From positions 199,702,001 through 199,766,000 of the forward strand of contig OZ024741.1 of NCBI GenBank assembly GCA_964016885.1: a stretch of 64,000 bases of DNA, written 5' to 3'. Made by a program: the position numbers and the translations under genes. Below, in pieces: positions 3,790 to 53,420 of the stretch. The DNA comes from Eledone cirrhosa (taxonomy: Eukaryota). Below the pieces are notes generated by a model that saw only the letters and a program-made list of their open reading frames with translations, was not told the origin of the DNA and did no database searches. Within the stretch, counting starts at the first letter, position 1. Each line of letters starts with the position of its first letter.

Positions 3790-3797
<8 letters not shown>

Positions 3798-5908
3798 AAA
3801 TAAATAAGTCAAATGTTTAAAATTCGGCTTCGTTTATTACTGCTATATATATTTCGGTGACAGCCATCTTTGGCTGTGACCTCTTCAGGCAGTCCGAATT
3901 AGTGTGGTAGAGACGAGTACACATGTTGTTGAGGTGTTTAACTTTGTCAATACTCTGATATGCCCAGTTCCTGGTTGGGTTGTTGTTTCACTGAGGAACT
4001 GGAATCATATGAATTTAAACAAACGAATTTCAGTGTCAGAGGACATCTTCTCTCATTGGTCAGTTGTGAGAACATTCCTCAGTCAAAAGGCAATCTGTGG
4101 TGGTTGTTCTTGTTATTGTTAAGTACATCTGACCTCTACTCTTGGTAGTGGTGTTAGAGTCAGCTCAAAAAAATGATAAAGTGGTAGAAAGAATAAGGTG
4201 GTAAAGGAACAAAATAAAATAATCAAATAAAATGTGTGTGTGTTATACCCCAAAAATAATCAAATAAAATGTGTGTGTTATAAAAATTTGTAAGGTCATC
4301 AGTTTTGAGAGCATTCCTCAGTCAAAAGTCTATAAAAATTCTTTCTGGGGTGAGGTTCCCTGTAGTGTTTGTTTTTGCTATTGTTAAGTACATCTGACCT
4401 CTACCCTTATTTTGGTAGTGTTGTTGGTGTTGTGGTCAGCCTATGTCTTGCTGCTGCTGACATTTAGAAGTATCTGTGTGTGTTTCTTCATCCATCCTGC
4501 CACCATCTCTCGTGGTGGTGGTGGTCTTCCATGTATATGAAGAAATAGAAGGCAATAAAATGAAGAAAACAGAAAATAAATAATAAATAAAAAATAAATG
4601 AAAAATTATTGAAAAATTAATGGAAATTGGAAAATGAAAAATGAAGAATGAAAATGAAAAGTGGAAAATAGAAGCGAAGATTCAAATAAAATAAAATGTG
4701 TGTGTGCTATAACCAATCTCAAGGTCAGAAAGATGTTGGATAAAGTGGTAGGAGGAACAAGATGGTAAAAGAATAAAACGAAATAAGATAATCAAATAAA
4801 ATGTGTGTGTGTTATAAAGATGTTGGCCAAATTAGAAAGGCTGTGTCAGAATCAATCTCTAGGCTATCATGGTGTCAGCTCAGCCTGGGTGGGTCCTTAT
4901 GGCTTGAGGGGAGTTCCCAACCTATGGTGTTGTTACTGCCCATATAGCTTGAGAGAGATCTGGCTGAGAGGTGTCTACATGTTCTGGAGAAGTCCCTATA
5001 GCTTGAGGGGAGTTCACATTTCAGTGTGTTGTTACTATCCATATAGCTTGAGGAAGGTCCCGGCCCTGAGGTGTTGCATGTCCCGAAGAAGTCGGTTCTG
5101 AGGTTTATCAGGCGGTTTCCACCTCTTAATATCTCTCGAGGGTCTCGTTCAGACATAGTTTGCATATTCCAGATCCCCCTTTATTGGGTGGTACCTTCCT
5201 GATCATGGACCAGGCCAGAGAGTACGGGGTCCTGTCCAACTTAAGCTTCCAGATTAGGTCAGAAAGAGCCGTACTTTTCCTTTTGGCCTCCTTATTGATG
5301 GAATGGCGATGGTTATACCAACGGTCTTTAAAGCTCGTTGGTGTGGCTCCTATGTAGAGATGTTCCGAGTTGGGGGTTTTAACCCTACATCCGTATATTA
5401 GGTTCTTAAAGCATTCATTACTAAGGGGGCATGTTTCGGGGTTTCTGCAGTTGCAGAGGGTGGTCGACCTCTGCGTGCCTAGTGTGGGATTCCCGTTATG
5501 TGTTACATGGTGGTCTTCCCCCGGGCACGGTGGGGAGTCCCCGGGTCTGTTTGAGTTTTTTGGGTGGGCACTGGGTCCCCCCTTCCCTCCTACATGGTTC
5601 TGCTGGTTGCTTATATTGCCATCTTCTGGTTGTGTGTGTTTTTTAAGCCTACTCCTGTTGATGCTAGCTATGTGTTGGGCCAGATTTCTTGTGGTGGAAT
5701 ACGAGAGCTTCACAGTGTGTCTGTTGAAGATCTTGTGGTATCTATGGTCCCTCGGGAAGCATTTATCAAGTGCTCCAAAGAATGATCGGGCCAAGCTGTT
5801 CTTTAGGGCCGCTGAGTAGGGTGGGTTGTACCACGTGATTTTTCTGCGTCTACTCCTATATGGGTGGGTTGGGAGCGTCGTGAGTTGTTGGAGAGTTGTT
5901 GGGTTGCT
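3790..5908 (-). mobile_element. Penelope-like element (Naiad-type), left arm: linker, GIY-YIG endonuclease and 3' pLTR region
   Basis: Minus-strand ORF reads RKITWYNPPYS...KIFNRHTVKLSYS...CNCR..CPL...C..IY...YIG...FKDRWYNH..S...STALS.LIW.LK...C.LCLNE. A hammerhead lies at the distal end. Clade assignment is from recalled motifs, not from a search. Confidence 0.9.
3839..3893 (-). ncRNA. Minimal type-I hammerhead ribozyme (PLE-associated, family 1)
   Basis: Minus strand reads ACTGC-CTGAAGA-GGTcACAGCCAaagaTGGCTGTcACC-GAAA-TATATATA-GCAGT. Confidence 0.85.
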
Positions 5909-7500
5909 GGCTCTTTCTGATCTGATCTGATCTGGAAGCTCAAGCTGGACAGGACCCCATACTCTCTGGCCTGGTCCATTATCAGGAAGGTACCACCCGA
6001 TAAAGGGGGATCTGGCATATGCAAACAATGTCTGAACGAGACCTTCGAGATACTAAGAGGTGGAAACCGCCTGATAAACCTCAGAACCGACTTCTTCGGG
6101 ACATGCAAACACCTCAGGGCCGGGACCTTCCTCAAGCTATATGGACAGTAGCAACACACTGAGATGTGAACTCCCCTCAAGCTATAGGGACTTCGCCAGA
6201 ACATGTAGACACCTGTCGGCCAGATCTCCCTCAAGCTATATGGGCAGTAACAACACCATAGGTTGGGAACTCCCCTCAAGCCATAGGAACCCACCCAGGC
6301 TGAGCAGACACCATGATAGCCTAGTGATTGATTCTGACACAGCCTTTCTAATTTGGCCAACATCTTTATAACACACACATTTTATTTGATTATCTTATTT
6401 CGTTTTATTCTTTTACCATCTTGTTCCTCCTACCACTTTATCCAACATCTTTCTGACCTTGAGATTGGTTATAGCACACACACATTTTATTTTATTTGAA
6501 TCTTCACTTCTATTTTCCACTTTTCATTTTCATTTTTCATTTTTAATTTTTCAATTTCCATTTTTCATTAATTTTTCATTAATTTTTCATTTATTTCTAT
6601 TTATTATTTATTTTCTGTTTTCTTCATTTTATTGCCTTCTATTTCTTCATATACATGGAAGACCACCACCACCACGAGAGATGGTGGCAGGATGGATGAA
6701 GAAACACACACAAATACTTCTAAATGTCAGCAGCAGCAAGACATAGACTGACCACATCATCAACAACACTACCAAAATACGGGTAGAGGTCAGATGTACT
6801 TAACAATAGCAAAAACAAACACTACAGGGAACCTCACCCCAGAAAGAATTTTTATTGACTTTTGACTGAGCAATGCTCTCAAAACTGACCAATGGGAGGA
6901 GTGACCTTACAGATTTTTATAACATTGAGATTGGGTATAACACATTATTTGATTATTTTATTTTGTTCCTTTACCACCTTATTCCTTCTACCACTTTATC
7001 ATTTTTTTGAGCTGACTCTAACACCAACACCACTACCACCATAAGAGTAGAGGTCAGATGTACTTAACAATAACAAGAACAACCACCACAGATTGCCTTT
7101 TGACTGAGGAATGTTCTCACAACTGACCAATGAGAGGAGAAGATGTCCTCTGACACTGAAATTTGTTTGTTTAAACTCATATGATTCCAGTTCCTCAGTG
7201 AAATAACAACGCAACCTGGAACTGGGCATATCAGAGTATTGACAAAGTTAAACACCTCAACAACATGTGTACTCGTCTCTACCACACTAATTCGGACTGC
7301 CTGAAGAGGTCACAGCCAAAGATGGCTGTCACCGAAATATATATATAGCAGTAATAAATGAAGCCAAATTTTAAACATTTGACTTATTTATTTTATTTTA
7401 TTTTACATTACTCTGGAGTAACCAAACCAACCTGCGCACTTCGTCGAGTGCTCCAATCTGCATACTGAGGTGTTGGTATACAACCAACATATACTCAAAA
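5909..7500 (+). mobile_element. Penelope-like element, right arm (inverted copy of 3790-5270) with an extra 3' tail of about 100 bp
   Basis: Reverse complement of the left arm. Encodes the endonuclease C-terminus IWKLK...CKQCLNE...LINLRTDFFGTCKH. Ends in (TA)n. Confidence 0.9.
7296..7352 (+). ncRNA. Minimal type-I hammerhead ribozyme (PLE-associated, family 1)
   Basis: Stem I ACTGC/GCAGT, core CTGAAGA (7301-7307), 10-bp stem II, GAAA (7334-7337), palindromic (TA)n stem III. Predicted AUA cleavage between 7347 and 7348. Confidence 0.88.
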
Positions 7501-34604: not shown

Positions 34605-36775
34605 GAAAATGTATAAAGGGAACACTACATAAAATATATAAAGGGAACACTGTACATAAAATGTATAAAGGGAGGACTGTACATAAAATATATAAAGGGG
34701 GCACTGTACATAAAATATATAAAGGGGGCACTGTACATAAAATATATAAAGGGAACACTGTACATAAAATGTATAAAGGGAGCACTGTACATAAAATATA
34801 TAAAGGGGGCACTGTACATAAAATGTATAAAGGGAACACTGTACATAAAATGTATAAAGGGAGGACTGTACATAAATATATAAAGGGAACACTGTACATA
34901 AAATGTATAAAGGGAGGACTGTTCATAAAATGTATAAAGGGAACACTGTACATAAAATGTATAAAGGGAGGACTACATAAAATATATAAAGGGAACACTG
35001 TACATAAAATGTATAAAGGGAGGACTGTACATAAAATATATAAAGGGGGCACTGTACATAAAATATATAAAGGGAACACTGTACATAAAATGTATAAAGG
35101 GAGCACTGTACATAAAATATATAAAGGGGGCACTGTACATAAAATGTATAAAGGGAACACTGTACATAAAATGTATAAAGGGAGGACTGTACATAAATAT
35201 ATAAAGGGAACACTGTACATAAAATGTATAAAGGGAGGACTGTTCATAAAATGTATAAAGGGAACACTGTACATAAAATGTATAAAGGGAGGACTACATA
35301 AAATATATAAAGGGAACACTGTACATAAAATGTATAAAGGGAGGACTGTACATAAAATATATAAAGGGGGCACTGTACATAAAATATATAAAGGGAACAC
35401 TGTACATAAAATGTATAAAGGGAGCACTGTACATAAAATATATAAAGGGGGCACTGTACATAAAATGTATAAAGGGAACACTGTACATAAAATGTATAAA
35501 GGGAGGACTGTACATAAATATATAAAGGGAACACTACATAAAATGTATAAAGGGAGGACTACATAAAATGTATAAAGGGAACACTGTACATAAAATGTAT
35601 AAAGGGTGGACTACATAAAATATATAAAGGGGGCACTGTATATTAAATGTATAAAGGGAGCACTGTATATAAAATGTCTAAAGGGAACACTGTACATAAA
35701 ATGTATAAAGGGAGAACTGTACATAAAATATATAAAGGGAACACTGTACATAAAATATATAAAGGGAACACTGTACATAAAATGTATAAAGGGAGGACTG
35801 TACATAAAATATATAAAGGGAGGACTGTACATAAAATGTCAAAAGGGAACACTCTACATAAAATGTATAAAGGGGGGACTGTACATAAAATATATAAAGG
35901 GAACACTGTACATAAAATGTATAAAGGGAGAACTGTACATAAAATATATAAAGGGAGCACTGTACATAAAATGTATAAAGGGAACACTGTACATAAAGTG
36001 TATAAAGGGAGGACTGTACATCAAATATATAAAGGGAGGACTACATAAAATGTATAAAGGGAACACTGTACATAAAGTGTCTAAAGGGAACACTGTACAT
36101 AAAATGTATAAAGGGAGGACTACATAAAATATATAAAGGGAGCACTGTACATAAAATGTCAAAAAGGAACACTCTACATAAAATGTATAAAGGGGGGACT
36201 GTACATAAAATATATAAAGGGAACACTGTACATAAAATGTATAAAGGGAGGACTGTACATAAAATATATAAAGGGAGCACTGTGCATAAAATGTATAAAG
36301 AGAACACTGTACATAAAGTGTCTAAAGGGAACACTGTACATAAAATATATAAAGGGAGCACTACATAAAATATATAAAGGAAACTGTACATAAAATATAT
36401 AAAGGGAACACTGTACATAAAATGTCTAAGGGAGCACTGTATATAAAATATATAAAGGGAGCACTGTACATAAAATATATAAAGGGAACACTGTACATAA
36501 AATATATAAAGGGAACACTGTACATAAAATATATAAAGCGAGCACTACATAAAATGTCTAAAGGGAGCACTGTACATAAAATGTATAAAGGGAGCACTGT
36601 ACAAAAAATGTATAAAGGGAACACTGTACGTAAAATGTATAAAGGGAACACTACGTAAAATGTATAAAGGGAACACTGTATATAAAATGTATAAAGGGAG
36701 GATTGTACATAAAATATATAAAGGGAGCACTGTACATAAAATATATAAAGGGAGCACTGTACATTAAATGTCTAC
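34605..36775. repeat. 27-bp minisatellite, about 80 units, consensus AAAATRTATAAAGGGRRSACTGTACAT
   Basis: Direct observation. All ORFs in this region are repeat artefacts. Confidence 0.98.
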
Positions 36776-42421: not shown

Positions 42422-43099
42422 TGTAATGGAATATTATGTGTGGTTGTAACGATGTGGATGGATGAATGTAACTGTTGGTATGGTGGTTTCGATGTAAAGA
42501 AAAATACCAGGATTGTGTTGTTACAAAGTTTATTTTATTATAACAATATTCAATTTGAATATTGAATGATAAAATCAATAACACAAAATATTCATACAAT
42601 AATTTGGTGGCTCTTCGAGTCACGTAAATTCAAGAATCACAGAATACGATTATAATATAATTTGTACTGTATCAGAAAGGTACAATATGTGTAAACAGAA
42701 ATGAATGGTGAGTTCAGTATATTTACTTATTTGTATTGCAGGAGTCAGCGATCAGCCAGGAAGGTGAGAATAAGTGGCAGACTGGTTTTTCGTGACGAGA
42801 GCTTGTAAATGCGACTTTCTGTCGGGCGTGAACAACCCCTGTATTTATAAGAGGTGAAGTTAGAAGGATAGATATATCCTCTGAACTTTGGTTAGTCTCC
42901 CAAGGGATTAGTTTGCCAAGCGTAAACAAATCAGAAAGATGAATATATCCTCTGACCTATTTTCTGTCAGGCGTAAACACCTCTGACCTGTGTTTAGCCT
43001 CTCCCAAGGGGTTAGTCTCTTGAGCGTAAACTAGTTACCACGGCTTGTCCCAGAGGCGGGAAAGCCCAGATTCGGTTTCAAATCTTTGCCGCCGTTATA
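42422..43099 (-). repeat. Gypsy 3' LTR
   Basis: Direct repeat of 46148-46826, with about 11 differences by eye. Confidence 0.96.
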
Positions 43100-46000
43100 G
43101 TACCCCCCTTCCAGTGAGAAAACTAAGATTGAACGATCTAGGTGCATGTGATATGAAGATAGTTATGACTAGGTGTGTTGTTGAAGAAAATCAGTAAAAA
43201 TAAAAAACACATGAAAGTCATTTACAAACAGGAGGAATGAAAGAAAACATGCAAAGCAAAAGAAATTTACATGCAGGAAAATGTACTGTGATGTTACATA
43301 AAATTGAAAATGTTCGTACGAAAAGTTTGTTGATTAAAAGTTCGTTCATTTCATAGAAACGGAAAAATGTTCTTTTGTCTGTTCTTTTGATGTGGGTGAT
43401 GCACAGAGTTAATTGATTTGTGTGTAGTAATAGTTCATGACCACAGAAATTGGCCGATTCGTTGAAATGTACAAATTAGCCGAAATGTCGACCAGATGCA
43501 TAATTTGTACCTACCTGATAAACTTGTACGTATCGCGTGGGCCATCGGACTGTTCTTCCAGATTTGGTGTGTCGGGGTTGTGCAGAATTTGTCGTGTTTG
43601 TGTCGGGCAAAGTTGTTGGTGAGTCTGCTGGAGAAACGGTGGGTACTGGTGGCAATTCCTGTTCTATGAACGCTTTTTTTAAACGATCAATGGAGATGGT
43701 ATTTCGTTTCCCGTTCAAGTCGAGGACGAAATACTTAGGGCGTTCCTGTATCACCTTATAGGGCCTGGAATACGGCGGACGAAGTTGCGATGGAATACCG
43801 TCATTTCTAACGAAAACATGCGTCCATGTATCGATGTCTTTTGGTATGTGTGAAGTAACGTGCTGTTGTTTAGGGGCTGAAGGAGACAGATGCGACATCG
43901 ATGACCGTAAACGGTGCACATATTTTGTTGGGTCTGGAAGTTCTTGTGGCGAAACAGGAGCGATCATTTGTCCGGGTAGAGTGAGTACGGTGCCATACAA
44001 CATTTCAGCTGGAGAATGTCCGACTCCCTCCTTAACAGTGGAACGAATACCAAGAAGAATGAGTGGGAGGTATTCGAACCAGTTAGTGGAGTCTTCGTAA
44101 GCCTTGATAGATGCTTTTAGCTGGCGGTGGAAACGTTCTACCATGTCGTTAGCGGCAGGGTGATACGCTGTTGTACGGATGTGTTTGCACCCGAGCAGAC
44201 GAGTCAGCTCGGTAAAGAGGTGCGAATCGAACTGACGTCCTCTATCCGTAGTGATGGTCGTGGGTGTGCCGAAACGCGAAACCCAGTGAAACACTAGCGT
44301 TTTGGCGACAGTTTCCGCAGTAATATCCGTCAGAGGAAAAGCTTCTGGCCAGCGAGAAAATCGGTCGACACAGGTGAGAAGATGAGTGTAGTTGTGAGAA
44401 GGAGGCAAAGGTCCAACGATGTCTATATGCACATGTTGGACCCATGCATCAGGTGTTGCGAAAGAACCGCTTTGATGTGCCGGTGAATTTTCGCCTTCTG
44501 GCACGCGATACAGTTCCTAGCCCATTCGCGGGTGTCCTTGTTGATGTTGGGCCACACAAAGCGGGCAACCATCAGTTTCTGCGTGGCGCAGACGCCAGGA
44601 TGTGCCAGAGAATGCAGTGCCGAGAAAACATCGCGTCGATGTTTCCGGGGCACGTATGGGCGCTGGTGGCCTGTGGAGATGTCGCACCAAATATAACCCG
44701 AAGAAGAGGGCAGCGGGCATTCCTGCAATTTCAAGGATGATTTCCGGAGTTGCAGCAGTTCCTCGTCATTCTGTTGATCCGCTGCAATCCTCTGGAGGTC
44801 GATAGTGGCAGTGGTGTGGATTGCGTTAAGCTCCATGTGCGACAGGGCATCAGCTGCTGAGTTGGTGGCACCCTTAATGTACCGAATATCAGTAGTGTAC
44901 TGAGAAATGAAGTCCAGATGTCGGACCTCCCTGGGTGAGTGTCGGTCAGGCCTGGCATTGAACGCGTACACTAGTGGTTTGTGGTCGGTGTATATAGAGA
45001 ACACACGACCTTCTAGCATGTGTCGAAAATGCTTGACAGCAAGGTATGCTGCCAATAATTCACGACTGAATGTGCTGTACTTAATTTCGGTGGGTTTTAA
45101 TCACTTAGAGAAAAAAGATACAGGTCGCCAAATATCGCCAGAGAGTTGTTGAAGCACACCTCCAACTCCGAAATCGGATGCATCAGTCAATAAATACATT
45201 GGGGCGTCAGATTTGGGGTAACTCAGTATTGTAGCCTCGGACAACATTTTCTTCAACTCAGCGAAAGCGGTACATTCTTTTTCGCTGAGATTGATGTTTG
45301 CGTTTTTGGTTGTACGCTGCCGCAGCAAATCTGTGAGTGGTTGGGCTGTCTCTGCACAGTGGGGTATAAATCTTCTGTAGAAGTTTACCAGGCCAAGAAA
45401 TTCTCGCAGTTTGCGGAAAGATGTAGGTTGTGGAAAATCAATGATGGATTTGACTTTCTCCTTAAGTGGGCGAATACCATCTTTGTCAATAATGTGTCCC
45501 AGAAAATGAAGGGACACAACTCCAAACTCACATTTGCTGGGGTTGATAACAATTCCGTATTCACGCAAACGTGTGAATAGGAGATCCAGGTGTTTCTCAT
45601 GGTCTTCATCGGAGCTGCTGGCCACCAGTAAGTCGTCAATGTATGCGTATACAAAAGGTAGACCTCTGGTGACTATCGATGAATCGATGGAATGTCTGCG
45701 CTGCATTTCGCAAACCAAAAGGCATACGCAGAAATTCGAACATTCCAAAGGGTGTTGTGACTGCGGTCTTTGGAATATCTGCAGGCTCAACGGGTATCTG
45801 ATTGTAAGCTCGCACAAGATCGATCTTCGAAAATATGCGAACCCCGTGCAGCGAGCTAGAGAAGTCCTGTAGATGAGGCACTGGATAAGAATCAGTGCAC
45901 GGTAGTCGCCACAGATTCGCCAGTCGTTCGACGACTGCTTGGGTACACAGCGTATGGGTGAGGACCAGTTGCTGCTGGACAGACGTATAATGCCGAGATC

Positions 46001-46147
46001 CAGCATGTGCTGAAATTCTTGTTTGACGGACTTCAGCCGGTCTGGTGGCCCCTTATAACAAAATACTGGTGTGTATGAATATAACAAGAGACGTGGTTTG
46101 TGGTGAATGATCAGAAGGTTGTGTGTCTGTTTTACGGGGTCACCAGT

Positions 46148-46826
46148 TGTAACGGAATATTATGTGTGGTTGTAACGATGTGGATGGATGAATGTAACTC
46201 TTGGTATGGTGGTTTCGATGTAAAGAAAAATACCAGGATTGTGTTGTTACAAAGTTTATTTTATTATAACAATATTCAATTTGAATATTGAATGATAAAA
46301 TCAATAACACAAAATATTCATACAATAATTTGGTGGCTCTTCGAGTCACGTAAATTCAAGAATCACAGAATACGATTATAATATAATTTGTACTGTATCA
46401 GAAAGGTACAATATGTGTAAACAGAAATGAATGGTGAGTTCAGTATATTTACTTATTTGTATTGCAGGAGTCAGCAATCAGCCAGGAAGGTGAGAATAAG
46501 TGGCAGACTGGTTTTTCGTGACGAGAGCTTGTAAATGCGACTTTCTGTCGGGGCGTGAACAACCCCTGTATTTATAAGAGTTGAAGTTAGAAGGATAGAT
46601 ATATCCTCTGAACTTTGGTTAGTCTCCCAAGGGGTTAGTTTGCCAAGCGTAAACAAATCAGAAAGATGGATATATCCTCTGACCTATTTTCTGTCAGGCG
46701 TAAACACCTCTGACCTGTGTTTAGCTTCTCCCAAGGGGTTAGTCTCTTGAGCGTAAACTAGTTACCACGGCTTGTCCCAGAGGCGGGAAAGCTCAGATTC
46801 GGTTTCGAATCTTCGCCGCCGTTATA
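46148..46826 (-). repeat. Gypsy 5' LTR
   Basis: Followed on the minus strand by a PBS complementary to the 3' end of tRNA-Trp. Confidence 0.96.
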
Positions 46827-47903: not shown

Positions 47904-47965
47904 CGTGGAAGAATAGAAGATGTAGTTGTTAGTAATGAATATCGGGGACAAAAACTAGGTAAATT
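47904..47965 (+). CDS. GNPNAT1: GNPNAT1 coding exon (RGRIEDVVVSNEYRGQKLGK), acetyl-CoA-binding motif A
   Basis: ttttAG acceptor and GTAAGT donor. 62 nt, phase 0 to 2. Contains the GNAT RG..LGK motif. Confidence 0.96.
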
Positions 47966-48097: not shown

Positions 48098-48156
<59 letters not shown>

Positions 48157-48191
48157 CTATATCTATATCTCTCTCTCTCTATATATATATA

Positions 48192-48234
<43 letters not shown>

Positions 48235-48260
48235 GATATTAAATAAATGGAAACTATATT

Positions 48261-48326
48261 TATTTCATTATATATATTTCAGGGATATCATATTAAAAAT
48301 ATGTTATGCCTTCTTCAGACAAAATA
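48261..48326 (-). ncRNA. Minimal type-I hammerhead ribozyme (family 2)
   Basis: Exact reverse complement of 48534-48599. Confidence 0.75.
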
Positions 48327-48533
48327 CAATATAAACAGTCTTATAAATAGATAGATTCGACATACCTTTCAACTTCGACTTCTATTTGAAAAGTTGATTT
48401 GGTAGTGAAAAAATATTAGGGACAGTTATATTTTTTCACTACCAAATTTTTTCACTACCAAATCAACTTTTCAAATAGAAGTCGAAGTTGAAAGGTATGT
48501 CGAATCTATCTATTTATAAGACTGTTTATATTG

Positions 48534-48599
48534 TATTTTGTCTGAAGAAGGCATAACATATTTTTAATATGATATCCCTGAAATATATATAATGAAATA
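48534..48599 (+). ncRNA. Minimal type-I hammerhead ribozyme (family 2)
   Basis: TATTTTGT-CTGAAGA-AGGcATAaCATATTtttAATATGaTATcCCT-GAAA-TATATATA-ATGAAATA. Stem I pairs with two G-U. Predicted cleavage between 48591 and 48592. Confidence 0.78.
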
Positions 48600-48744
48600 A
48601 ATATGGTTTTATAAATATAGTTTCCATTTATTTAATATCGTAAATATACTCCAAATACTTGTTGAGTGCTTTTATATCAGTTATAAATATTTACTCGTTG
48701 TTAACCCAACAATTTAAATAAAACTTTGCATATATATATATATA

Positions 48745-48994
48745 TTCAAAAACAAATGACATATATATAAAAAATATATCAAACATTAATAGGAGATAAT
48801 TTGCAAAATTTAACAAAAATATTAACACATATACCTGACATTCAATAATTATTGAATGTCAGGTATTTATGTTTAATATGTTTGTTAAATTTAAATATAC
48901 CACCTTTTTGTAATTATATGTTATTACATTCTTTGCAAATTATCTACTGTTAAATGTTTGATATATTTTTATATATATGTCATTCGTTTTTGAA
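48745..48994. repeat. AT-rich fold-back element or MITE (imperfect palindrome)
   Basis: Centre TACCTGACATTCAATA-AT-TATTGAATGTCAGGTA. Ends TTCAAAAAC.AATGACATATAT / ATATATGTCATT.GTTTTTGAA. Confidence 0.8.
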
Positions 48995-49084
48995 TTTACA
49001 ATAAGAGCTCGGAATTATTTCTTTGGGCTTCCTTTACAGGTGATATGGCATCATCATCATTTTACGTCTGCTTTTCCCTGCTTG

Positions 49085-49085
<1 letters not shown>

Positions 49086-49115
<30 letters not shown>

Positions 49116-50070
49116 GTTTAACGTCCATCTTCCACGCTTGCATGGGTTTGGACAGGAATTTTCCCACTTGAGGCAAGATTGCTTGTCTTGCTCGTATAGG
49201 ACTGTCTGGCGGGTTTTCTACAGCTGGATGCCCTTCCTAATACCAACCACGTTTACAGTGTGGACTGGGAGGTTTTTACCGTGTTACCTACACAGTGACA
49301 TTACAGCGTGGACTGTGCGTTTTTTTGTTGTGACTGTGTGTTTTTTTGTTGGACTGGATGTTGTGGTACCAACATAACTTTATATCGAAAGGGGTGGTGT
49401 GGATGGGGGGTGTATTTTTGTTAAGAGGTGCCTACTGACTGTAGGTTTCGCTTTGTACTTAGGCAAGGCAGGTCTTCTGTATTACTGTGTAGCGCCAAAG
49501 ATCTCGGTCCAGTGACATTGTCTTGGGGAGGTGTAAGTGTATGAGGTCGGAATTTATCAAGTCGTCCCATTTTTTTCTGGGTCTGCCTACTCCGTGGCTA
49601 CCGTCTATTTTCATCGCCCTGCACTTTTTTATACAGCTGTCGTCTTTCATGCGCATCACGTGACCATACCAACGTAGTCTTCTCTCGAGTAAACAACATC
49701 TCATTCCTCTTATTCCTAATTTCTCCCTTAGTTCATTTATGTTTTGCCATTCACGTATATTACTATTACACATCCAACGGAGCATGCAAGCTTCGTTCCT
49801 CTCCAGTCTGCGTATATCCTCTGCACACAATGCCCAAGTCTCACTGCCATGTAACATTGCTGTTCGTATGCAGGCATCATACAGCCTGCCTTTCATTTTT
49901 AGAGAGAACCCTTTAGTGGCCAATAGTGGTATAAGCTCTCTGAACTTTTTCCATCCCGTTCTGACTCTAGCTACTGTACTTTCAGAGCATCCTCCACCAC
50001 TGCTGATTTTGTCACCCAGGTGTCCACTATTTCTATAGAACCATCTGTGCAATGGAATGAGCTAGTATTC
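49086..50070 (-). mobile_element. 5'-truncated RTE LINE (family A), antisense in GNPNAT1 intron 4
   Basis: ORF 49459-50052 is nearly identical to the 3' part of 22589-23554. (CAT)n tail. Confidence 0.95.
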
Positions 50071-50223: not shown

Positions 50224-50417
50224 CATTTCTGCTGACGAATGTTTTAGTTGATTCAATCAACAGAACTGCCTGCTCATAAAATTAACATGTCACACTGAAT
50301 TTCCCTGAAAACTTTAAGGGTGCATGTGTCTTTAATATACTCAGCCACTTACACATTAATTTCATGAGCATGCAGTTCTGTTGATTGAATCAAATGGAAC
50401 ATTTGTCATTGGAAATG
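50224..50417. mobile_element. MITE with long terminal inverted repeats
   Basis: TTGATTCAATCAACAGAACTGC.TGCTCAT.AAATTAA / TTAATTTCATGAGCATGCAGTTCTGTTGATTGAATCAA. Confidence 0.75.
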
Positions 50418-53269: not shown

Positions 53270-53420
53270 GCTGCTTGATATCGTAATTGAAAGGTGTAAA
53301 AATTTTGGTTGCTACAAGATCTCCTTAGAATGTAAGACTAATCTGATACCTTTCTACAATTTGTTTGGTCTTGAAAAAGAAGAGGACAATAACTATCTTG
53401 TATGTCGGTTCAAAGACTAA
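53270..53420 (+). CDS. GNPNAT1: GNPNAT1 last coding exon (LLLDIVIERCKNFGCYKISLECK...FY..FG...NYLVCRFKD*)
   Basis: Polypyrimidine tract plus cAG acceptor. Phase 2 completes TT|G (Leu). CYKI.LEC motif, TAA stop at 53418-53420. Confidence 0.95.

What the first reader, a model, noticed from the sequence alone, without database searches (positions are those of the whole stretch)
48232..48730. Non-coding palindromic double-hammerhead element inside GNPNAT1 intron 4
Seen: a near-perfect inverted repeat of about 180 bp with a hammerhead core (CTGAAGA / stem II / GAAA / TATATATA / stem I) in each arm. There is a 16-bp direct duplication (TTTTTTCACTACCAAA) at the axis, (TA)n flanks, a PLE-like tail and no ORF. 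It copies the architecture of the 3.8-7.5 kb PLE in miniature but has unrelated sequence. The + strand ribozyme is sense to the pre-mRNA, about 570 nt after exon 4, and is preceded by its own exact antisense. Inference: a non-autonomous, retrozyme-like PLE derivative whose ribozyme is self-masked by duplex formation. A-to-I editing or unwinding could in principle unmask it and cut the host intron.
Basis: partly seen in the sequence, partly recalled or inferred. Interest (0 to 1): 0.75.

Follow-up and report, generated by a model that had tools for sequence, protein, structure and literature searches.

The report
Mirror-image stub of Penelope retrotransposon
This 500-base mirror-image DNA in a gene's intron is made of two short end-pieces of a young, protein-coding Penelope-like jumping gene joined back to back, one of many such likely dead-end insertions in this genome, and its self-cutting RNA motif is predicted to stay silent rather than regulate the host gene.

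Summary
In detail: arms 48232-48429 and 48446-48648, a 16-nt duplication at the axis, one minimal type I hammerhead per arm, TA flanks, last intron of a GNPNAT1 gene. It is not a separate retrozyme-like family. The right arm (285 nt) is 100% identical to 18 other genomic copies and 99.6% identical to the pLTR in front of an intact 742-aa ORF with Hydra-clade Penelope motifs. Short head-to-head forms recur (41 of 100 sampled insertions), but they fall into 40 junction classes, and this junction is unique in the genome. The commonest shared junction occurs in both orientations (13 vs 14), so each stub is likely made anew. One arm ends at element position 203, the other at 285, which gives an 82-nt tail. 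Both arms stop far more often at a TCA motif than elsewhere, and not at the ribozyme cut, which suggests run-off at an uncut RNA's 5' end; a second family does the same. Masking is predicted (83 kcal/mol) but follows automatically from the layout, and unmasking by editing fails in simulation. Close opposite-strand hammerhead pairs from truncated Penelope elements were reported in 2014. This scan noted the same reading on other DNA.

The parts
48101..48231 (.). (TA)n/(TC)n microsatellite, left flank and likely target
48232..48429 (-). Inverted arm: element positions 203 back to -15 (position 1 = 48446), with a private 14-nt deletion between short direct repeats
   Evidence: deletion seen only in this copy, against 306 full-form matches in the fetched loci, overlapping fetches included
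48261..48326 (-). Minimal type I hammerhead of the inverted arm (antisense to the host pre-mRNA)
   Evidence: core at - 48318; limits by symmetry with the + copy
48430..48445 (+). 16-nt extra copy of element positions 1-16 at the junction; likely templated insertion made during end joining
   Evidence: junction unique in genome; 11 of 41 short copies carry 5 or more inserted letters
48446..48730 (+). Direct arm: 3' end (pLTR plus tail) of a young Hydra-type PLE, positions 1-285
   Evidence: 100% identical over 285 nt to 18 other places; 99.6% to the pLTR before the intact ORF in L039
48452..48460 (+). TCA motif and family-wide stop hot spot (A at 48454); candidate 5' end of the element's RNA
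   Evidence: second family stops at its own TCA
48534..48599 (+). Minimal type I hammerhead, sense to the pre-mRNA; 2-bp palindromic stem III; predicted cut 48591/48592
48649..48730 (+). 82-nt one-sided tail between the two fixed element ends (203 and 285)
   Evidence: 2469 exact matches for the 203 end, 886 for this subfamily's 285 end, 38 reading on into the ORF
48731..48746 (.). (TA)n right flank
47904..47965 (+). Host GNPNAT1 exon before the element
53270..53420 (+). Host GNPNAT1 last coding exon

Best explanation
It is a head-to-head pair of 5'-truncated 3' ends of a young, ORF-bearing Penelope-like retrotransposon with Hydra-clade motifs, likely made in one insertion event into a TA microsatellite and likely a dead end. 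Shown: identity to the pLTR of coding copies; fixed ends at positions 203 and 285; a unique junction; family-wide variable truncation with a sharp stop at a TCA motif and none at the ribozyme cut. Inferred mechanism: the element's RT-endonuclease cuts both strands of the TA repeat, and each DNA end primes reverse transcription at one of two internal sites of uncut element RNA (203 and 285). The two cDNAs stop early, often by running off a defined RNA 5' end about 90 nt upstream of the hammerhead core. Their free ends are then joined by microhomology or snap-back repair, which here left the 16-nt duplication. This copy's left arm ran 23 nt past the usual stop, so its template began further upstream. 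In the host pre-mRNA the element would fold into a long duplex that silences the single sense hammerhead. That is a by-product of the layout, not a switch.
For:: 40 of 1303 candidates scored; 19 places (this one included) are 100% identical over all 285 nt; the same pLTR precedes an intact ORF of 742 aa from the first Met, with DKT, CxCx5C, CxxC, YRDD and no CCHH; unit length 3847 nt; of the first 100 position-ordered 203-ended arms, 69 have a head-to-head 285-ended partner; 41 of those are 600 nt or less and 28 longer, a continuum up to multi-kb; of 30 arms anchored at 285, 17 pair with a 203 end, 0 with a 285 end, 1 other, 7 none, 5 cut by the fetch. (91 anchors, 9 of a diverged subfamily dropped): stop rate at unit positions 9-16 is 21 in 485 nt at risk (4.3%/nt) for left arms and 11 in 216 (5.1%) for right arms. 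Other zones give 0.02-0.6% (left) and 0.05-1.4% (right), and the ribozyme cut gives 1 in 1167 and 2 in 704; 9 of 30 arms of the window's other PLE family stop within 7177-7184, at its own TCA; junctions are private; the commonest shared junction (41 hits) has the 203 arm on one side in 13 and the 285 arm in 14 of 30 loci (3 unresolved), which one founder copy cannot give; 2 of 100 insertions join this family's arm to the other family's arms. Literature: PMC11167929 (two internal RT start sites define the tail; both strands cut and extended; unprocessed RNA is the substrate), PMC8557442 (inverted 5'-truncated copies, tail, TA targeting in Hydra), PMC4209133 (opposite-strand pairs 100-700 bp apart, ascribed to truncated PLEs), PMC2377424 (Penelope promoter and start site lie in the pLTR).
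Against: No RNA 5'-end data: the only likely RNA run was held as contigs. The test for a cap-derived extra C was inconclusive (family A 3 of 11; second family 5 of 9). This copy does not stop at the hot spot (left arm -15, right arm +1, though the right stop is blurred by the templated 16 nt). Left and right stops are correlated (Spearman 0.43, 16 of 62 within 10 nt against 5.8 by permutation), and arms within a locus are closer (1.2%) than between loci (2.8%, 22 loci); both fit one RNA or a fold-back as well as two RNAs. In vitro, PAc showed no strand preference for the two start sites (PMC11167929), whereas here nearly every insertion has one of each. Some upstream 'stops' may be alignment breaks in the microsatellite-rich UTR. 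Clade membership rests on motifs, not on a tree with reference Hydra proteins.
Confidence: 0.85

Rival explanations
1. A non-autonomous, retrozyme-like family: the palindrome is itself transcribed and re-inserted as a unit by PLE proteins.
For: The short form is abundant (41 of 100); 103 places carry a near-symmetric junction at the hot spot and 41 share one exact junction.
Against: This junction occurs once; 40 classes among 41 short copies; the shared junction lies in both orientations, 13 vs 14; arms are identical to coding copies; retrozymes are tandem, not inverted (10.64898/2026.07.22.740005).
Confidence: 0.05
2. Fold-back model: one cDNA primed at 285 snaps back at its 3' end and copies itself to position 203, so the inverted arm is a DNA copy, and the hot spot reflects the hairpin at positions 9-53, not an RNA start.
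For: Hairpin at positions 9-53 in the arm's fold; arms share variants within a locus; perfect palindromic axes such as TTATAA and GGTACC.
Against: 28 of 69 insertions are longer than 600 nt, and many have an inverted arm far longer than the direct arm (e.g. stops -1074 and 59), which self-copying cannot give. Two-family chimeras exist. The second family stops at TCA with unrelated sequence. It may still explain the short templated inserts and the stop itself.
Confidence: 0.07
3. Exapted regulatory ribozyme: editing or unwinding unmasks the sense hammerhead and cuts the GNPNAT1 intron.
For: Intact core, sense orientation, 569 nt after an exon; exon 4 is covered in the likely RNA run X4.
Against: The insertion is very young (100% identity to 18 copies). 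The layout is automatic. This family alone has one exact 203 end per 1.2 Mb, so intronic copies are expected by chance. The forced active fold costs 83 kcal/mol, and still 33-51 with half of the other A's edited, when only 3% of molecules would keep the five core A's. The monomer fold is 4.8 kcal/mol above its own minimum, and such motifs showed no monomer cleavage (PMC4209133) or needed the PLE protein (PMC11167929).
Confidence: 0.03

Closest known systems
Hydra clade of C-terminal EN+ Penelope-like elements, incl. Hydra-1_Obim (Craig et al. 2021, PMC8557442; section 11, passages and supplementary rows read)
   Same: Parent ORF has DKT, CxCx5C linker, CxxC, no CCHH, C-terminal GIY-YIG-type region; TA targeting; hammerhead in pLTR; inverted 5'-truncated copy and one-sided tail.
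   Different: RWR and CRY in place of RWK and CxH in the copy read; unit 3.85 kb against 'generally <3 kb'; tail 82 nt against 30-40 nt; Hydra-1_Obim is listed without pLTR (2507 bp). No direct sequence comparison was made.
Opposite-strand dual minimal hammerheads of truncated PLEs (Cervera and De la Pena 2014, PMC4209133; parts 1-2 of 4 read)
   Same: Two minimal type I hammerheads about 100-700 bp apart on opposite strands, palindromic short stem III, long stem II, no ORF.
   Different: That paper gives no census of junctions or stops; here A-U closes stem II in place of the usual G-C with a bulge.
PAc Poseidon element in vitro (Frangieh et al. 2024, PMC11167929; parts 1-2 of 4 read)
   Same: Two internal RT start sites bounding the tail; both strands extended; AT-rich target; uncut RNA as template.
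   Different: PAc sites lie inside the ORF and showed no strand preference; here both lie upstream of the ATG and pair one of each per insertion.
Non-LTR retrozymes (10.64898/2026.07.22.740005; part 1 of 5 and passages read)
   Same: Non-coding, type I hammerhead, PLE pLTR origin.
   Different: Retrozymes are head-to-tail tandems with two hammerheads on one strand; this is head-to-head with one per strand and no sign of own spread.

Membership tests
Hydra-clade PLE (parent element) | Single ORF with RT and C-terminal GIY-YIG-type endonuclease | tested here: met
   742-aa open ORF with GSSD/YRDD RT motifs. Pfam does not hit this copy; 1 of 15 aligned homologues hits RVT_1 (9e-6) and 1 of 15 hits GIY-YIG weakly. 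The sister family in the window hits GIY-YIG at the cut-off.
Hydra-clade PLE (parent element) | DKT in place of DKG | tested here: met
   DKT at residue 126, conserved in 15 of 15 aligned proteins
Hydra-clade PLE (parent element) | CxCx5C linker; no CCHH; CxxC before the conserved E | tested here: met
   CNCRDRSKC at 609, CDLC at 707, no CCHH-type match
Hydra-clade PLE (parent element) | RWK motif and CxH motif | tested here: inconclusive
   This copy reads RWR and CRY; most homologues read RWK and CxH
Hydra-clade PLE (parent element) | Insertion into (TA)n | tested here: met
   30 of 41 short copies have TA after the 285 end; 2469 exact TA-joined 203 ends (the pattern itself asked for TA)
Hydra-clade PLE (parent element) | Placement in the Hydra clade on an RT tree | not tested
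   Reference Hydra proteins were not available as stored sequences
PLE insertion structure | Inverted 5'-truncated copy next to a direct copy, tail on one end only | tested here: met
   69 of 100; 17 of 30 from the other end
Minimal type I hammerhead | CUGANGA, stem II, GAAA, short palindromic stem III, UH, stem I | tested here: met
   core CUGANGA intact in 87 of 93 arms, with variation concentrated at N7
Minimal type I hammerhead | Self-cleavage | not testable with these tools
   No raw RNA reads; bench test needed
Non-LTR retrozyme | Head-to-tail tandem units with two hammerheads on one strand | tested here: not met
   Inverted layout, one hammerhead per strand
Non-LTR retrozyme | Own family spreading as a unit, distinct from the coding element | tested here: not met
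   Unique junction, private junctions, identity to coding copies
Non-LTR retrozyme | Circular RNA intermediate | not testable with these tools
   Contigs only; see the back-joint under Noticed in passing

The most novel reading that the evidence does not exclude
The stubs are a genomic record of the Penelope insertion step. Two reverse transcriptases, one on each end of a cut TA repeat, start at two different internal sites in strict one-of-each fashion, copy the uncut 5' end of the element's mRNA, run off at its transcription start, and can do so on RNAs of two different families. Junction censuses would then map PLE transcription starts and priming sites without RNA data.
Probability: 0.5. 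Interest if true: 0.5.

Novelty: new member of a known kind. Interest (0 to 1): 0.3.

Why it matters
For the host gene it probably does not matter: it is one young insertion among an estimated thousand similar stubs (41 of 100 scaled to 2469 exact matches; extrapolated). Its value is mechanistic. How PLEs form inverted and tandem insertions is named as an open task in PMC8557442. The census gives testable coordinates: two priming sites, a candidate RNA start at TCA in two families, no stop at the ribozyme cut, and two-family chimeras. I did not find the run-off hot spot described in five paper searches, but that library lacks most subscription papers, and this scan already noted the idea on another genome.

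Tried and rejected
Rfam scan: no hammerhead family hit; miRNA hits are hairpin noise below gathering score. Pfam and PDB gave no hit for the parent ORF itself. Laying public runs: no empty-site allele, editing or RNA ends could be read, because the runs are contigs or reduced-representation DNA and reads from many copies pile on the element. X4 looks like RNA (exon 4 covered, the next intron bins not) but its type is not on record. A contig start at position 10 in X4 is also seen in DNA-type run X5, so it is no evidence for a start site. Cap-derived extra C at the stop: inconclusive. Genomic source of the X4 back-joint: first probe at chance level and wrongly designed, second probe 0 matches. 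Earlier-finding search by sequence: nothing. That cuts in introns often leave splicing intact is recalled only; one search showed just a reference title, so I did not use it as evidence. The organism group (cephalopod) is recalled from repeat patterns and named in earlier AI notes; I did not test it. No formal covariation test of the hammerhead stems and no RT tree were run. The bioRxiv preprint's supplements were not seen.

Full report
Observation. The element is as described. The arms pair over 164 nt at 99% without gaps and on to 48232/48648. They are identical except for a 14-nt deletion and 15 extra upstream letters in the left arm. The 16-nt duplication is exact. A script scan finds a hammerhead core on each strand (48542 +, 48318 -) and the matching pair in the 3.8-7.5 kb element. 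Rfam does not recognise them. The flanking exons translate to GNPNAT1, and stem I begins 569 nt after the exon that ends at 47965.

What it belongs to. The right arm finds 1303 candidates in the genome. Of 40 scored, 19 places are 100% identical over all 285 nt. Upstream of most lies a shared UTR, and in four of 30 loci the same sequence reads on into an ORF. In L039 a 99.6% identical pLTR precedes an open frame of 742 aa from the first Met. It has DKT, CxCx5C, CxxC and no CCHH, the diagnostic list for the Hydra clade in PMC8557442, though RWR and CRY stand for RWK and CxH. The unit is 3847 nt. The window's 3.8-7.5 kb element is a sister family, 38% identical in protein and unrelated in DNA. 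So the finding is two 3' ends of a coding retrotransposon.

Architecture across the genome. Inverted arms end at element position 203 and direct arms at 285. Exact probes count 2469 ends at 203, 886 at 285 for this subfamily, and 38 read-throughs into the ORF. I took the first 100 of the 2469 by position. Of these, 69 have a head-to-head partner ending at 285: 41 total 600 nt or less and 28 are longer. In 28 of the 100 the insertion is short and has a full hammerhead in both arms. From the other end, 17 of 30 arms ending at 285 pair with a 203 end and none with another 285 end.

It does not spread as a unit. The window's junction occurs once. The 12 most similar palindromes each have their own junction. 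The 41 short copies fall into 40 classes. One junction recurs 41 times, but among 30 of these loci the 203 arm lies on its left in 13 and the 285 arm in 14, with 3 unresolved. A founder copy would fix the orientation.

Where the arms stop. With 9 anchors of a diverged subfamily dropped, the stop rate at unit positions 9-16 is 4.3% per nt for left arms and 5.1% for right arms. Most other zones give about 0.1-0.2%, the 16 nt just downstream give 0.6% and 1.4%, and the ribozyme cut shows no excess. The hot spot lies at a TCA motif (A at window 48454). The sister family stops at its own TCA in 9 of 30 arms (apparent duplicates among the 30 not removed). TCA as an initiator motif is recalled. PMC2377424 places the Penelope promoter and start in the pLTR (passages). 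The simplest reading is run-off at the 5' end of an uncut RNA; a hairpin at positions 9-53 is the rival cause. A test for a cap-derived extra base was inconclusive. This copy's left arm passes the hot spot by 23 nt, so it is one of the few near misses (4 of 91 left arms stop in the next 59 nt).

Mechanism. PMC11167929 showed that a PLE protein cuts and extends both strands of an AT-rich target, starts at two internal RNA sites that bound the tail, and uses uncut RNA. Applied here, the two DNA ends prime at 203 and 285 and the two cDNAs are joined head to head. Unequal arms and two insertions of 100 that join arms of both families argue for two synthesis events. Correlated stops and closer within-locus arms show that they often share a template. 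Junction inserts of 5 or more letters occur in 11 of 41 short copies, so the 16-nt duplication is ordinary repair debris (inference).

The ribozyme in the host transcript. Forcing the active fold costs 82.8 kcal/mol in the whole element and 6.8 in the right arm alone. In any head-to-head insertion the antisense arm comes first whichever way it lies, so the masking is automatic. Only one hammerhead is present per transcript. Its 2-bp stem III marks the type that showed no monomer cleavage and weak dimer cleavage (PMC4209133). In a best-case model (edited A's unpairable, ribozyme untouched, 12 runs per level), editing 50% of the other A's left a mean penalty of 51 and a minimum of 33 kcal/mol. 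Public runs could not show editing, ends or an empty allele.

Against the known. PMC4209133 already reports minimal hammerhead pairs 100-700 bp apart on opposite strands and ascribes such motifs to truncated PLEs. PMC8557442 shows the inverted-copy-plus-tail layout. Retrozymes are tandem, and this element fails that test. The family itself may be uncatalogued, since the nearest proteins found are at most 38% identical, which makes it a new member of a known kind. The run-off hot spot and one-of-each priming were not found. Earlier AI notes of this scan reach the same reading on other DNA; I saw them after my own census was noted, and they are not independent support.

Verdict. Real feature, ordinary origin, function as a host regulator unlikely. 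Interest 0.3, carried by the insertion-mechanism census rather than by this copy.

Noticed in passing
L147 (G000:C1:94380200-94385200) and L189 (G000:C1:165669200-165674200): Chimeric insertions: a 203-ended arm of this family continues into inverted and direct pieces of the window's other PLE family, ending in that family's tail; suggests template switching between RNAs of two families.
   Followed up: partly
window 3790-7500: Second Hydra-type PLE family, head-to-head, arms about 1.5 kb, broken ORF; 105 exact matches to its inverted-arm end; 9 of 30 arms stop at 7177-7184.
   Followed up: partly
L031 7960 to 7554 (run X4): A contig at depth 240 joins early ORF back to the pLTR, a unit of about 420 nt that contains the hammerhead; depth drops to about 35 beyond it. 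Not found in the assembly. Could be a circular RNA or a tandem derivative in another individual, which would be a true retrozyme-like form.
   Followed up: partly
window 48741-48998: An older, degenerate palindrome of about 260 nt directly after the element's right TA flank; no match in the other fetched loci; reads from other places lie on parts of it. Possibly a MITE.
   Followed up: partly
window 50252-50390: Hairpin with about 35-nt inverted ends in the same intron, MITE-like.
   Followed up: no
window 42422-46826: LTR retrotransposon on the minus strand in the preceding intron, LTRs 679 nt at 98.4%, broken RT/integrase frames.
   Followed up: no
window 49049-50070: LINE-like fragment with (CAT)n end on the minus strand, with relatives at 22.9-23.9 kb and 0.2-3.6 kb.
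   Followed up: no
window 34606-36774: Tandem array of about 27-nt units, 2.2 kb.
   Followed up: no
L195-L197 (G000:C1:133985673-133986143): The shared palindromic junction repeated three times at 223-nt spacing: local tandem amplification of part of a stub.
   Followed up: no
L075, L143, L154, L155, L168, L169, L175, L177, L184: A diverged subfamily with a different sequence upstream of position 67 and its own stem II variant; L143 appears to pair arms of two subfamilies.
   Followed up: no
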